DNA of 64,000 bases from the human T2T-CHM13v2.0 reference genome, Homo sapiens. A model generated the notes under the pieces. That model saw nothing but the letters and a program-made list of their open reading frames with translations. It did no database searches and had not been told where the DNA came from. The stretch lies in assembly GCF_009914755.1 (NCBI RefSeq), contig NC_060945.1. One strand, given 5' to 3'. The translations under genes were made by a program, and so were the position numbers. This document shows, in pieces, positions 39,871-49,852 of the stretch; positions within the stretch are counted from its first letter, which is position 1; each line of letters opens with the position of its first letter.

Positions 39871-40000
39871 TAGAACTAGAATATAAGGTAAATAACACTT
39901 GCTGATTTGAAAAATATACTACAAACCTAAGTGGTTTAATACAATGTCTTTTTTTTTTTTTTTTTTGCTAACATTACAGTCCAGTGAGAGTACGGCAGCA

Positions 40001-42275
40001 ATCAAGTCACCAAGTGACCTGAATTGCTTATTATGAACTGGGTGCTTTCTGACCCATCTAGCCATCAAGGGGGCCATGCACAGCAGCATTCAGCATCAAA
40101 TCATCAAATTAAAGTGGTATATATGTGATCTGGCTTGAGCAGGTCCTGAAGACACAAGTAAGTTACCTGAGAAAGTAGCTCAAATGTCCATGGTCTCCAC
40201 TCCTGCCACCTTGCCTTCTTTCCCTTAGCCTGCACTGATGGCCTCATGGGGAGTTCCCTATGATCAGTTGACAGAGGAAGACAAGACTAGGGCTTGGTTC
40301 ACAGATGGTTATGCACGATATGCAGGCACCACCTGAAAGTGGACAGCTGCAGCTCTATAGCCCCTATCCCTGAAGGACAGTGGTGAAGGCAAATCTTCCC
40401 AGTGGGCAGAACTTTGAAGAGTATACCAGGTTGTGCACTTTGTATGGAAAGAGAAATGACCAGTAGCGCCATTGTATACTGATTCATGGGCTGTAGCCAA
40501 TGGTTTGGCTGGATGGTCAGGCACTTGGAAGAAGCATAATTGGAAAATTAATGACAAGGGAATTTGGGGAAAAGGTATGTGGATATACCTCTTGGAGTGG
40601 CCAAAAACTGTGAAGATATTTGTATCCAAAGTGAGTGCTCACCAACGTGTCATCTCAGCAGAAGAGAATTTTAATAATCGATTGGATAGGGTGACCTTTT
40701 CTGTGGACACTACTCAGTCTCTTTCCACAGCCACAGCTGTCATTGCCCCATGGGCCCATGAAAAAGGGGCCATGGTGGCAGGGAAGGAGGTTATGCATGA
40801 GCTCAGCAACAAGGACTTCCACTGCCCCAAGCTGACCTGGCTATGGCCACTGCTGAGTGCCCAGTTTACCAGCAGCAGAGATCAACACTGAGCCCTCAAT
40901 ATGGCAACATTTCTCGGGGTGATCAACCAGCTACCTGGTGGCAGGTTGATTATATTGGATCTCTTCCCTCATGGGAAGAGCAGAGGTTTGTCCTCACTGG
41001 AATAGACACTTATTCCAGTTATAGGTTTGCTTATCCTGCACCCAATGCTTCTGCCAAAACTACCATCCTTGGACTCACAGAATGCCTTATCCACCGTTAT
41101 GGTGTTCCACACAGCATTGCCTCTGACCAAGGCACTCACTTGCGACAGTGGGCACATGCTCGTGAAATTCACTGGTCTTACCATGTTGCCCATTATCTTG
41201 AAGCAGCTGGATTGATAGAATGGTGGAACGGCCTTTTGAAGTCACAATTACAATGCCAACTAGGTGACAATATTTTGCAGGGCTGAGGCAAAGTTCTCCA
41301 GAAGGCTGTGTATGCTCTGAATCAGCATCCAACATATGGTACTATTTCTCTCATAGCCAGAATTCATGGGTCCAGGAATCAAGGGGTGGATGTGGAAGTG
41401 GCATCACTTGCCATCACCCCTAGTGGTCCACTAGCAAATTTTTTGCTTCCTGTTACCATGACATTACATTCTGCTGGCCTAGATCTCTTAATTTCAGAGG
41501 GAGGAATGCTGCTACCAGGAGACACAACAATGATTTCATTAAATTGGAAGTTAAGAATGCCACTTGGACACTTTGGGCTCTTCCTACCTTTCAGCCAAGA
41601 GGGTAAGAAGGGAGTTACAGTGTTTGCTGGGGTGATTGAACTGGACTATCAAGATGAAATCTACCTACTACTTTACAACAGAGGTAAAGAAGAGTATGCA
41701 TGGAATACAGGAGATCCATTAGGGCATCTCTTAGTATTACCATGCTCTATGATTAAGGTCAATGAGAAACTATGAAAGCCCAACCCAGGCAGGACTACAA
41801 ATGGCCCAGACCCTTCAGGAATGGAGATTTATGTCACTCCACCAGGAAAAAAACCCACGACCTGCTGAGGTGCTTGCTGAAGGCAAAGGGAATACAGAAT
41901 GGGTAGTAGAAGGTAGTCATCAATACCAGCTATGACCACGTGATCAGTTGCAGAAACAAGGACTGTAATTGTTTTAAGTATTTCCTCCTTTTGTTAAAAA
42001 CTGTTTGTGCATGTATACACTTGTACTAAGAAAATATCTCCGTTTTATTCCTTTTTTCCTTTATCATGTTACATAGGATTTATTGACTTCATACCAGCAT
42101 TTAAGTATTGTTAACTTTATGTAATAGCATTTGCGTTGGGGATTGATGTAGTTCCAGTTGTACCAATGATAGTTGTATTATGTTAGGTGTAATTCTGATC
42201 TTATTATTGTCTTTATTTGAAGATTATGTTTGATCTCAGGCGATGTGGATGGGTTCAAATTGACAAAGGTGGACT
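40001..42275 (+). mobile_element. HERV-L internal region, 3' half (RT connection, RNase H, integrase, dUTPase, PPT); pseudogenised
   Basis: ORFs YTDSWAVANGLAGWSGTW (RNase H), WQVDYIG..GIDTYS..SDQGTH (integrase) and NWKLR..GHFG..GVIELDYQ (dUTPase). Confidence 0.95.
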
Positions 42276-42714
42276 TGTGATGGTTAATACTGAGTGTCAA
42301 CTTGATTGGATTGAAGGATGCAAAGTATTGATCCTGGGTGTGTTTGTGAGGGTGTTGCCAAAGGAGATTAACATTTGAGTCGGTGGGCTGGGAAAGGCAG
42401 ACCCACCCTTAATCTGGGTGAGCACCATCTAGTCAGCGGCCCCTGTGGTCAGGATATGAAACAGGCAGAAAAACATGAAAAGTCTAGGCTGGCTTAGCCT
42501 CCCAACCTACGTCTTTCTCCTGTTCTGGATGCTTCCTTCCTTTGAACATCAGACTCCAAGTTCTTTAGCTTTGGGACTTGGACTGGCTTAGTGATGGAGG
42601 ACTTGCAGATGGCCTATTCTGGGACCTTGTGATTGTGTGAGTTAATACTACTTAATAAACTCATATATATATATCCTATTAGTTCTGTTCCTCTAGAGAA
42701 CCCTGTCTAATATG
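42276..42714 (+). mobile_element. MLT2A2 LTR (3' LTR of the HERV-L)
   Basis: TGTGATGGTTAATACTGAGTGTCAACTTGATTGGATTGAAGGATGC start; AATAAA near 42654; followed by TSD TACAG. Confidence 0.93.
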
Positions 42715-44047
42715 TACAGGCTCTATGCAAGTCTGAAATCTAATAGGGCAGACATTAAACCTTAAAGTTCCAAAATTATCTCCTTTGACTCCATGTCTCA
42801 CATCCAGGTCATGCTAAAGCCAGAGGTGGGCACCCATGGCCTTGGGCAGCTTCGCCCCACTGCCTTTGCAGGGTACATCCCCCTTCCCTGTCTCTATCAC
42901 AGGCTGGCATTAAGTGTCTGTAGCTTTTCCAGGCATACAGTGAAAGCTGAAGGTATATCTACAATTCTGGGGTCTGGAAGATGGTGGCCTTTTCTCACAT
43001 CTCCATTAGGCAGTGCCCCAGTGAGGACTCTGTGTGAGAGCTCTGACCCCACAATTCCCTTCCATACCGCCGTAGCAGAAGTTCTCCATAAGGGCCCCAT
43101 CCCTGCAGCAAACTTCTGCCTGGACCTCCAGGTATTTCCATACATCCTCTGAAATCTAGGCAAAGGTTCCCAAACCTCAGTTCTTGACTTCTGGGCATCC
43201 ACAGGGTCAACACCACATGGAAGCTGACAAAGACTTGGGCCTTGCATGTTCTGAAATCATGGCCTGAGCTGTACCTTGGCCCCTTTTAGCCATGGCTGAA
43301 ACAGCTGGGATACAGGGTACCAAAACCCTAGGCTGCACACAGCTGGAGGGCCCTGATGGCCCATAAAACAATTTTTTTTCTCTCTTAGGCCTCCAAGCCT
43401 GTGATGGTGGGGGCTACCATGAAGGTCTCTGACATGCTCTGGAGACATTTTCCACATTGTTTGGTGATTAACATTCAGCTCCTTGTTACTTATGTAAATT
43501 TCTGCAGCAGGCTTGAATTTATCCCCAGAAAAAATATATATATATGTCTTCCTATCACATCACCAGGCTGCAAACTTTCCAAGCTTTTGTTCTCTGCTTC
43601 TTCTTAAATGTTTTGCCCCTAGGAAATTTCTTCTGCCAGATACCCTAAATCATCTTTCTCAAATTCAAAGCTACACAGATATCTAGGGCAGGGGCAAAAT
43701 GCCACCAATCTCTTTGTTAAGCATAGCAAGAGTGACCTTTACTCCAGTTCCCAAGAAGTTCCTCATCTCCATCTGAGACCACCTCAGCCTGGACTTTATT
43801 GTCCAAATCACTAACAGCATTTTGATCAAAGCCATTCACCAAGTCTCTAGGAAGTTTGAAACTTTCCCACATCTTTCTGTCTTATGAACCCTTCAAGTCC
43901 CTAAGAAGTTTCAAACTTTACCATATTTTCCTGTGTTTTTGTGAGTCCTCTAAACTGTTCCAACCTCTGCCTGTTACCTAGCTCCAAAGTTGCTTCCACA
44001 TTTTTGGTTATCTTTACAGAAGCACCCCACTCCTGATACCAACTTAC
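42715..44047 (-). mobile_element. THE1D internal region, 5' part
   Basis: THE1-int signatures (EVWEPLPRFQRMYGNTW-type pseudo-ORF; CACCCCACTCCTGATACCAACTTAC junction to the LTR). Confidence 0.9.
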
Positions 44048-44405
44048 TACATTAATTTGTTCTCATGCTGCTATGAAGAAATACCTGAGGCTGGATGACT
44101 TATAAAGAAAAGAGGTTTAATTGACTTACAGTTCTGCATGGCTTGGAGGTCTCAGGAAACTTACAATCATGGAGGAAGACACCTCTTCACAGGGTGGCAG
44201 GAGAGAAAAATGAGTTCAAGCAAGGGAAATACCAGGTGTTTATAAACCCATTAGATCTTGTGAGACTCACTGATTTTCATGAGAACAGCATGGGGGAAAC
44301 AGCCCCCATGATCAAAATACCTCTACCTGGTCCCACCCTTGACACAGGGAGATTATTACAATTCAAGGTGAGATTTGGGTAGGGACACAGAGCCAAACCA
44401 TATCA
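44048..44405 (-). mobile_element. THE1D 5' LTR
   Basis: CACCTCTTCACAGGGTGGCAGGAGAG...GACACAGAGCCAAACCATATCA. Confidence 0.9.
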
Positions 44406-48790: not shown

Positions 48791-48799
48791 ACATTCAAA

Positions 48800-49195
48800 T
48801 GGGAAGGCTATAACTAACTGCTATAACAGATAAATCAAAAAATTTTAGTGGCTTCCCAAAGAGCCATTTTCTCAGTGTTTATGTGAAGCCCAATACTAAG
48901 ATTTCTTATTAGTGGGAAGCCTTCCATGTGGTCATTCAGGAACCCACCCTCCTGCTCTCTTGTATCTGCCCTCCTGAGAACTCTAGAACCCTGTGTTCAG
49001 TTGGTGGTTGAAGAAAGGGAGTAGAGAACAGCACACAGGCATTTTAAGGAAGCAGGATTACAAGGTTTGATCAATTCCACTCAGTTTATATGCATTTTCT
49101 TCTCTAAAAGCTCCATTGCCTGACTTCACCTAACTTTAAGAAAAGCAAAACATGCAGTTGAGCTGGGTATCCAGGGGCATTAAAAAAACAGGATT
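48800..49195 (-). mobile_element. Old MLT1 (J/K-like) LTR
   Basis: CTGCTATAACAGATAA..TTTTAGTGGCTT..GTGGTCATTCAGGAACCC. Confidence 0.55.
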
Positions 49196-49196
49196 A

Positions 49197-49495
49197 GGCC
49201 GGGCGCAGTGGCTCACACCTGTAATCCCAGCACTTTGGGAGGCCGAGGCGGGCAGATCACTTGAGGTCAGGAGTTTGAGACTAGCCTGGCCAACATGGTG
49301 AAACCCCGTCTCTACTAAAAATACAAAAATTAGCCAGGCATAGTGCTGGGCACCTGTAATCCCAGCTACTTGGGAGGCTGAGGCAGGAGAATCACTTGAA
49401 CCCATGAGGTGGGGCTTACAGTGAGCCGAGATCGCACCACTGCATTCCAGCCTGGGTGACAGAGCATGACTCTGTCTCAAACCAGCAAACAAACA
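49197..49495 (+). mobile_element. AluSx/Sz SINE
   Basis: Full dimer GGCCGGGCGCAGTGGCTCAC...; degenerate TSD containing CAGGATT. Confidence 0.94.
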
Positions 49496-49852
49496 AGCAG
49501 GATTGAAGATCACTGAGCAACATTTAATTTAGGAAGTGTTGCTCTTGTAAGCAGGGTAGCCAGAAAAAGTTTTCCTGGCCTTTCTGAGGAAAGCAGGGGG
49601 CTAATGTGGCAGAGATTTGCAGGGGGCATTCTAATATTTAGGCTAGCTTTGTGCTTCTGAATTTATCTCTTTACAGATAGATTAGTCATGAGACTGAGCA
49701 GTAGTTGTTGAAATGTGGGAAGGAAAAATACAGGCCATTTACAGGTCAGACTCCTAAAACTCACTGTACTCTTCTCCTTGCTTTTTCTTTCTCTCTTTGG
49801 GAACAAAATCAAGGACTTAATCTCGGCTTAGAAGAGAGCTAACCAGAGGTGC

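What the first reader, a model, noticed from the sequence alone, without database searches (positions are those of the whole stretch)
39998..49852. A ~9.85-kb inversion splits one HERV-L provirus through pol
Seen in the sequence: the 3' half of a HERV-L (40001-42714, +) and the 5' half (49853-53636, -) are opposite in orientation but continuous. The minus half ends ...GAAACTGAACTTTTGACTATG and the plus half begins ATCAAGTCACC..., which are adjacent in the HERV-L consensus as I recall it. The HERV-L TSD appears as TACAG (42715-42719) and as its reverse complement CTGTA (53637-53641). Joining the two flanks gives uninterrupted THE1-int (GACTTGCATAGAGCCTGTAGCTTCTTTGTTTTGGCC). Both junctions carry a 3-bp inverted microhomology (GCA 39998-40000, TGC 49850-49852), with no long homologous repeats at the breakpoints. 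An MLT1-like fragment left of 40000 also appears to continue in the reverse complement of 49815-49849. Inference: a single, nearly balanced microhomology/end-joining inversion that happened after HERV-L insertion. It may be lineage-specific or polymorphic.
Basis: partly seen in the sequence, partly recalled or inferred. Interest (0 to 1): 0.8.

Follow-up and report, generated by a model that had tools for sequence, protein, structure and literature searches.

The report
Old inversion splitting one HERV-L provirus
A 9.85-kb piece of human chromosome 21 was flipped by a clean cut-and-rejoin event that split an ancient, dead retrovirus copy in two; older duplicate copies of the region elsewhere in the same genome still show the unflipped order, so the event is real but ordinary.

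Summary
Window 40001-49852 is inverted relative to its flanks.

- **HERV-L split.** The two halves (40001-42714 on +, 49853-53636 on -) are one provirus broken in pol, between the RT-connection and RNase H domains.
- **Paralogs keep the old order.** The region has ~96% identical segmental duplicates at chr18:15.19-15.23 Mb and chr21:11.64-11.69 Mb. Both carry the segment in the opposite orientation, with the HERV-L and the other breakpoint region contiguous. The window's order is therefore derived and younger than the duplication (K2P about 0.031).
- **Junctions.** Two bases of pol are lost. One to three bases (GCA/TGC) are duplicated in inverted form. No homology longer than 12 nt links the breakpoint neighbourhoods. 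This fits end joining of two breaks, not repeat-mediated recombination.
- **TSD and host element.** Ten of 10 independent copies of the THE1-int-like host element confirm them.
- **Population and species data.** No inversion is listed here in a T2T-based call set of 44 human samples. None appears in a 2005 human-chimpanzee list. It is probably fixed in humans.

No gene is hit. This is a sound, ordinary evolutionary inversion of modest interest.

The parts
39998..40000 (.). Left junction: last 3 bases (GCA) of the left flank, repeated in inverted form at 49850-49852
   Evidence: The corresponding TGC is single-copy in both paralogs at the ancestral breakpoint.
40001..49852 (.). Inverted segment (9,852 bp; its true end is 49849-49852, ambiguous because of the 3 shared bases)
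   Evidence: in the chr18 and chr21p paralogs this block lies in the opposite orientation relative to both flanks; the inverted junctions occur only at this locus.
40001..42275 (+). HERV-L internal region, 3' part: RNase H, integrase, dUTPase remnants
   Evidence: RNase_H in 40460-40888, rve in 40801-41283, dUTPase in 41287-41772; 37 other genomic copies at 81-85% identity.
42276..42714 (+). HERV-L 3' LTR
   Evidence: inverted partner of 53188-53636, 85% identity.
42715..42719 (.). Target-site duplication (TACAG)
42720..44050 (.).
   Evidence: the reverse complement of 42715-43000 lies immediately upstream of 53637-53906, with a 5-bp overlap, in 10 of 10 independent copies.
44051..44403 (.). 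LTR-like repeat of the host element, now inverted relative to its partner at 53907-54257
   Evidence: pairs I3, I4, I8, I9 and I11, 76-96% complementary.
49181..49485 (.). Alu-like dimer inside the segment, about 370 bp from the right junction and with no partner at the other breakpoint
   Evidence: D1; Alu-like matches.
49850..49852 (.). Right junction: TGC. Its last two bases can equally be read as retained HERV-L bases.
49853..53187 (-). HERV-L internal region, 5' part, ending in RT and the RT-connection domain
   Evidence: RVT_1 in 50344-50574, RT_RNaseH_2 in 49820-50164 (profile positions 1-88 of 100)..
53188..53636 (-). HERV-L 5' LTR
53637..53641 (.). Target-site duplication (CTGTA)
53642..54257 (.). 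Host LTR-element internal remainder (53642-53906) and its second LTR-like repeat (53907-54257), outside the inversion

Best explanation
An old HERV-L provirus (6,498 bp in two pieces, LTR-LTR K2P 0.17) inserted with a 5-bp target duplication into the internal region of an older LTR element at 21q21.3.

Much later, a block larger than the 64-kb window was duplicated to pericentromere-type sites. Copies now lie at chr18:15.2 Mb, chr21:11.66 Mb and chr2:132.3 Mb.

After that duplication, the 21q21.3 copy suffered two double-strand breaks 9.85 kb apart. One fell in HERV-L pol, between the RT-connection and RNase H domains. The other fell in unrelated non-coding sequence. The intervening segment was rejoined in reverse by non-homologous end joining. 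Two bases were lost at the pol break, and 1-3 bases at the other break were copied to both junctions (a filled-in staggered end, or use of a 2-nt microhomology).

- **Shown:** the ancestral order, both breakpoints at base resolution, the absence of repeats, and that the event is younger than the duplication.
- **Inferred:** the two-break end-joining mechanism (about 70% against a replicative template switch), fixation in humans (about 80%), neutrality, and 21q21.3 as the donor of the duplications.
For: - **Paralog order.** The chr18 and chr21p paralogs align to the window at 95-97% in three blocks, with 40001-49852 flipped relative to both flanks.
- **Ancestral junctions.** Both paralogs read straight through the pol junction and the second breakpoint. 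The window lacks 2 bases at the first and shares 3 bases between both junctions at the second. A 400-nt query across the ancestral second breakpoint matches the window in two pieces that overlap by 3 nt.
- **HERV-L continuity.** Independent copies are contiguous across the break: 5 of 5 loci, of which 3 of 5 are ungapped.
- **Domain order.** RT, RT_RNaseH_2 | RNase_H, rve, dUTPase across the break.
- **Host element and TSD.** Confirmed in 10 of 10 copies.
- **No repeats.** No homology above 12 nt (E at least 0.19) within +-1 kb of the breakpoints. No inverted repeat pair brackets them.
- **Relative age.** The window is the outgroup of the paralogs. K2P is 0.031 to each against 0.014-0.019 among them, and 187 of 411 two-state sites separate the window from all three.
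- **Human variation.** Table S1 of PMC10150506 (supplement table rows read) has 9 chr21 rows and none at T2T 26.39 Mb. Its GRCh38-misorientation table has one chr21 region, and it lies elsewhere.
Against: - The two LTRs are only 85% identical, and the 5' LTR is not among the 40 best genomic matches to the 3' LTR. Thirty-seven unrelated copies score 84-88%.
- Fixation rests on one call set, and absence from a list is weak evidence.
- A gibbon Strand-seq map lists no chr21 inversion near hg38 28.03 Mb. A 2005 human-chimpanzee list has none at hg17 28.32-28.33 Mb. The gibbon result is unexpected if the event postdates the gibbon split, unless 9.85 kb is below that method's reach.
- My hg17/hg38 coordinates are converted from anchors and partly from recalled gene positions.
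- The mechanism cannot be told from a template-switch event by sequence alone.
Confidence: 0.9

Rival explanations
1. The flip is private to CHM13, a low-to-moderate frequency human polymorphism, or a T2T assembly error.
For: Only one human assembly was examined directly here. None of my searches found the locus described in print.
Against: A T2T-based inversion call set from 44 samples lists chr21 events down to 667 bp. It has none at 26.39 Mb, and it does not flag the locus as misoriented. The junctions carry typical repair scars, a 2-bp loss and a 1-3-bp duplication, rather than a repeat that could mislead an assembler.
Confidence: 0.07
2. The inversion arose by replication-based template switching (FoSTeS/MMBIR) rather than by joining of two double-strand breaks.
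For: The right junction can be read as a 2-nt microhomology, and 1-3 bases are duplicated. Four to five differences from the paralogs cluster within 40 nt left of the left junction.
Against: The left junction is blunt with no microhomology. There is no templated insertion and no larger duplication or deletion, and net length changes by one base. The clustered differences are transitions that cannot be polarised without an outgroup.
Confidence: 0.2
3. There are two independent truncated HERV-L insertions in opposite orientation and no inversion. Alternatively, the paralogs rather than the window are the rearranged copies.
For: The LTRs are not nearest relatives by identity.
Against: The halves abut to within 2 bases in pol. 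They share one 5-bp TSD, and their flanks rejoin into one host element in 10 of 10 copies. A secondary inversion in the paralogs would have to create three perfect continuities at once.
Confidence: 0.01
4. Non-allelic homologous recombination between inverted repeats produced the inversion.
For: Alu-like and LTR-like repeats occur in the region.
Against: No inverted repeat pair brackets the breakpoints. The longest shared word within +-1 kb is 12 nt. The only nearby Alu (49181-49485) has no partner at the left breakpoint.
Confidence: 0.01

Closest known systems
Non-homologous ('NH') human inversions, as classed in Giner-Delgado et al. 2019 (PMC6748972; passages and supplement rows read)
   Same: Unique-sequence breakpoints, no long inverted repeats, small deletions or insertions at the junctions, and kilobase scale.
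   Different: Those are polymorphic in humans. This one is absent from the polymorphism lists I could read and is probably fixed. The only chr21 inversion I found there, HsInv0045, is a different 940-bp event at hg18 26.94 Mb.
Fixed small evolutionary inversions between human and other primates (for example Feuk et al. 2005, PMC1270012, supplement searched; Mercuri et al. 2022, PMC9712629, supplement rows read)
   Same: A kilobase-scale, balanced rearrangement in non-coding sequence on the human lineage.
   Different: It is not listed in either set at the converted coordinates. Here the ancestral state comes from paralogs within the genome, not from an outgroup species.
Pericentromeric segmental duplication of euchromatic segments (established model, recalled)
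   Same: Copies of the 21q21.3 block at chr18:15.2 Mb, chr21:11.66 Mb and chr2:132.3 Mb, 95-97% identical to the window.
   Different: Donor and acceptor direction was not tested, and the full extent exceeds the sequence I fetched.
HERV-L / ERV-L class III proviruses (pol with a dUTPase after integrase; recalled from the HERV-L literature)
   Same: LTR pair, 5-bp TSD, the RT-RNase H-integrase-dUTPase order, and many genomic copies at 81-86%.
   Different: It is split into two opposed halves by the inversion. It is heavily decayed, with the longest stop-to-stop frames at 162 aa and 134 aa.

Membership tests
HERV-L provirus | Two LTRs flanking an internal region, bounded by a short target-site duplication | tested here: met
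   LTRs at 42276-42714 and 53188-53636. A 5-bp TSD confirmed by a 5-bp overlap of the flanks in 10 of 10 host-element copies.
HERV-L provirus | pol with RT, RNase H and integrase followed by a dUTPase | tested here: met
   Pfam RVT_1, RT_RNaseH_2, RNase_H, rve and dUTPase in that order across the two halves. RVT_1 and RNase_H score just under their curated cut-offs.
HERV-L provirus | Sequence similarity to other genomic HERV-L copies along the whole length | tested here: met
   Thirty-seven copies at 81-85% over 1200 nt. Five loci match both halves.
HERV-L provirus | Named LTR subfamily (MLT2A2) and a tRNA-Leu primer-binding site | not testable with these tools
   No repeat-family library was available, and I did not type a primer-binding-site motif from memory.
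Non-homologous end-joining inversion | No inverted repeats or extended homology at the two breakpoints | tested here: met
   the longest shared word within +-1 kb is 12 nt, E 0.19.
Non-homologous end-joining inversion | Junctions with 0 to a few nt of microhomology and small indels relative to the ancestral sequence | tested here: met
   a blunt left junction, 2-nt possible microhomology at the right junction, a 2-bp loss and a 1-3-bp duplication.
NAHR-mediated inversion | Inverted paralogous repeats spanning both breakpoints | tested here: not met
Human polymorphic inversion | Both orientations segregate in human samples | tested here: inconclusive
   Not among the 9 chr21 rows of the T2T-based call set for 44 samples. 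The only chr21 inversion found in the supplements searched for the 45 inversions of PMC6748972 is elsewhere. No reads or other assemblies could be examined.
Segmental duplication family | At least 1 kb and at least 90% identity between non-allelic loci | tested here: met
   Blocks of 2-10 kb at 94.8-96.8% identity to chr18, chr21p and chr2.

The most novel reading that the evidence does not exclude
The inversion is specific to the human lineage, arising after the split from chimpanzee and fixed. It would then be a previously undescribed human-specific structural change lying between two lncRNA genes: LINC00314 ends 4 kb to the left and LINC01697 starts 11 kb to the right. It could have altered their regulatory landscape. 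A uniform prior over the interval since the duplication gives about 0.4. Absence from the 2005 human-chimpanzee inversion list lowers this.
Probability: 0.2. Interest if true: 0.45.

Novelty: new member of a known kind. Interest (0 to 1): 0.3.

Why it matters
- **One provirus, not two fragments.** The locus is a single HERV-L, which matters for counts and age estimates of endogenous retroviruses.
- **A base-resolved repeat-free inversion.** It adds a worked example of a repeat-free evolutionary inversion on the human lineage.
- **A method point.** Older segmental duplicates within the same genome can act as a record of the ancestral arrangement. They give the polarity and both breakpoints without an outgroup species.
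- **A mapping caution.** The segment is inverted relative to its 96%-identical paralogs, so cross-mapping reads could mimic an inversion signal at either place.
- **No functional effect seen.** No gene, exon or annotated functional element lies at the breakpoints, so no phenotype is expected.

Tried and rejected
1. **Nearest-relative test of the two LTRs.** The partner LTR is not in the top 40. I rejected this as a refutation because all copies of this age are about equally diverged.
2. **Dispersed copies of the non-viral breakpoint sequence, to test the 'MLT1' label.** Only the two paralogs and the window matched, 4 of 4 candidates. The label stays untested.
3. **The chr2:132.3 Mb paralog.** It lacks window 4846-53075, so it says nothing about the inversion.
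4. **An apparent duplication boundary at window 63987.** It was only an alignment break in a TA microsatellite. The paralogs continue beyond the window.
6. **Literature, nothing found.** Searches for the locus or for an inverted HERV-L found nothing specific. The main texts of PMC10028934 and PMC11092980 do not mention chr21.
7. **Literature, unreadable.** The supplements of the ape T2T paper (PMC12058530) and the macaque Strand-seq paper (PMC7605249) could not be read. Porubsky 2020 (PMC7415573) is not held.
8. **Divergence by compartment.** The inverted segment is slightly more diverged from the paralogs than the flanks are (0.037-0.038 against 0.030-0.034). I draw no conclusion from it.
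Full report
**Observation**

GCA lies at 39998-40000 before the start of HERV-L-like sequence on the + strand. TGC lies at 49850-49852 before HERV-L-like sequence on the - strand. TACAG is at 42715-42719 and CTGTA at 53637-53641.

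The repeat scan finds the LTR pair as an inverted repeat: 42276-42589 against 53323-53636 at 87% over 314 nt, plus two shorter continuations. Aligned end to end, the LTRs (439 and 449 nt) are 85% identical, K2P 0.17, and begin with the same motif.

**One provirus, not two**

The window's own genome could be searched.

- A 1200-nt query from 40001 found 37 dispersed HERV-L copies at 81-85% and two copies at 96%.
- In all five dispersed loci fetched (L004-L008), the sequence next to the match to 40001 onward matches the reverse complement of 49853 onward.
- In a short alignment over the break, 3 of these 5 copies are ungapped. One has a 13-nt deletion and one a local tandem duplication.
- Across, nine independent copies place the two matches exactly 3 bases apart.
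- Pfam domains run RVT_1 (50344-50574, -) and RT_RNaseH_2 (49820-50164, -, profile 1-88 of 100) on one side. On the other they run RNase_H (40460-40888, +), rve (40801-41283, +) and dUTPase (41287-41772, +).

The break therefore lies in pol between the RT-connection and RNase H domains. The order, with a dUTPase after integrase, is that recalled for HERV-L.

The two pieces sum to 6,498 bp. The element is decayed: the longest stop-to-stop frames are 162 aa and 134 aa.

**Target site and host element**

The reverse complement of 42715-43000 and the stretch 53637-53906 were compared with ten independent copies of the host element (L025-L034). In 10 of 10 they lie side by side with a 5-bp overlap. 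Eight show this directly, and two after allowing for 1 or 9 unaligned end bases.

This confirms a 5-bp target duplication and an uninterrupted host element before insertion. LTR-like repeats of that host element (44051-44403 and 53907-54257) are now inverted relative to each other. That is expected if only one of them lies inside the flipped segment.

**The decisive evidence: paralogs that keep the old order**

The two 96% matches belong to large segmental duplicates. Against the window, chr18:15190011-15232000 aligns in three blocks:

| chr18 block | Window coordinates | Strand |
|---|---|---|
| first | 63987 to 49851 | minus |
| second | 40001 to 49852 | plus |
| third | 40000 to 21932 | minus |

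chr21:11637001-11684682 shows the mirror image of the same pattern. Block identities are 94.8-96.8%. In both paralogs the segment is thus flipped relative to the window, and the provirus, its host element and the second breakpoint region are contiguous.

A 400-nt query across the second ancestral breakpoint matches in full only chr18 and chr21p. It matches the window in two pieces, 49652-49852 (+) and 39798-40000 (-), which overlap by 3 nt.

Queries across the window's two junctions are matched in full only by the window itself. None of 39 and none of 42 other matches span them.

A provirus inserts as one piece. The paralog order is therefore ancestral and the window's order is derived.

**Junction anatomy**

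- **Pol breakpoint.** The window keeps two of them (49851-49852, including a variant shared only with the paralogs) and lacks the other two.
- **Second breakpoint.** TGC occurs once in the paralogs but at both junctions in the window, as GCA and TGC.
- **Two readings of the shared bases.** One is a 3-base inverted duplication with a 4-base loss. The other is a 1-base duplication with a 2-base loss and a 2-nt microhomology at the right junction.
- **Left junction.** It is blunt.
- **Net change.** One base.

No homology longer than 12 nt (E 0.19 or worse) links the two breakpoint neighbourhoods of +-1 kb. No inverted repeat pair brackets them.

This is the signature of end joining of two breaks. 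A replicative template switch cannot be excluded from sequence alone.

**Age**

On 9,192 columns shared by four copies, the window differs from each of the chr18, chr21p and chr2 paralogs by K2P 0.031. The paralogs differ from one another by 0.014-0.019. Of 411 two-state sites, 187 separate the window from all three. Over the larger blocks the window-paralog distance is 0.030-0.038.

The inversion is younger than this split and far younger than the provirus (LTR K2P 0.17). Measured against recalled human-ape divergences (about 1.2% to chimpanzee, about 3% to orangutan, about 6% to macaque; from no call), the duplication falls near the orangutan split. The inversion would then belong to the great-ape or human lineage. 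This calibration is inference.

**Variation in humans and other species**

- **Human call set.** Table S1 of a T2T-coordinate inversion call set for 44 samples (PMC10150506, supplement rows read) has 9 chr21 rows. They lie at 5.86, 6.07, 8.84, 11.55, 12.33, 18.24, 25.01 and 42.17 Mb (two rows at 42.17), with none at 26.39 Mb. The table of reference misorientations has one chr21 region, and it lies elsewhere.
- **Common polymorphic inversions.** In the supplements of PMC6748972, the only chr21 inversion my searches found is HsInv0045, 940 bp at hg18 26.94 Mb, a different locus. My 'chr21' search skipped supplementary files 13-18, which include the inversion-features table (file 14); that table was searched only for 'HsInv0045'.
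- **Human-chimpanzee list.** The 2005 list (PMC1270012, supplement searched) has no entry starting 2832 or 2833.
- **Gibbon map.** The gibbon Strand-seq map (PMC9712629, supplement rows read) lists chr21 regions only at 14.19, 34.65 and 40.03 Mb.

The coordinates for the last two were converted from anchors and a recalled gene position, and both methods may miss a 9.85-kb event.

The inverted order is probably fixed in humans and probably shared with chimpanzee. Neither was shown.

**Results against the reading**

The 5' LTR is not among the 40 best genomic matches to the 3' LTR, and 37 unrelated copies score 84-88%. For an element this old, all copies are about equally diverged, so I give this no weight against the TSD, the abutting pol coordinates and the paralogs.

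**Comparison with what is known**

The event works like the non-homologous class of human inversions and like the small fixed inversions found in primate comparisons. It differs from catalogued polymorphic ones in showing no second orientation in the data I could read.

None of my five searches found it in print. Several large inversion tables could not be opened, so it may already be listed.

**Verdict**

This is a real, derived, nearly balanced 9.85-kb inversion formed without repeats, in a gene-poor interval between two lncRNA genes. No functional element lies at the breakpoints.

The finding is sound but ordinary. Its most useful aspect is that duplicates within the genome preserve the pre-inversion state.

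The natural paralogs answered the same question.

Noticed in passing
whole window; L009-L020, L035-L041: The whole region belongs to a segmental-duplication family larger than the window. Copies lie at chr18:15.19-15.23 Mb, chr21:11.64-11.69 Mb and chr2:132.29-132.31 Mb, 95-97% identical to the window and 98-98.6% to each other. All continue past window 64000.
   Followed up: partly
window 4845/53076; L038 (chr2:132305553-132305557): The chr2 paralog joins window 53076 directly to window 4845. It therefore lacks about 48 kb, including the whole inversion region.
   Followed up: partly
window 36700-39353: This 2.65-kb stretch is absent from the chr21p paralog but present in the chr18 paralog.
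   Followed up: no
window 35252-35278: A 27-bp stretch is present in the window but absent from both the chr18 and chr21p paralogs. It lies about 170 bp upstream of LINC00314 exon 2.
   Followed up: no
window 54811-55640: An older ERV-L-like fragment, about 70% identical to the integrase-dUTPase part of HERV-L, lies on the opposite strand to 41284-41911, just beyond the host element.
   Followed up: no
window 39958-39997: Four substitutions and one indel relative to both paralogs cluster within 40 nt of the left junction. The other three junction flanks show 0-1 differences. The cluster cannot be polarised without an outgroup.
   Followed up: partly
window 40001-49852: Substitution divergence from the paralogs is slightly higher inside the inverted segment (K2P 0.037-0.038) than in the flanks (0.030-0.034).
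   Followed up: no
window 49817-50164 (-): A 115-aa stop-to-stop frame from the RT-connection domain reads across the right junction into non-viral sequence. It shows no sign of function.
   Followed up: no
window 63940-63990: A TA microsatellite differs in length among all four copies and breaks the alignments there.
   Followed up: yes
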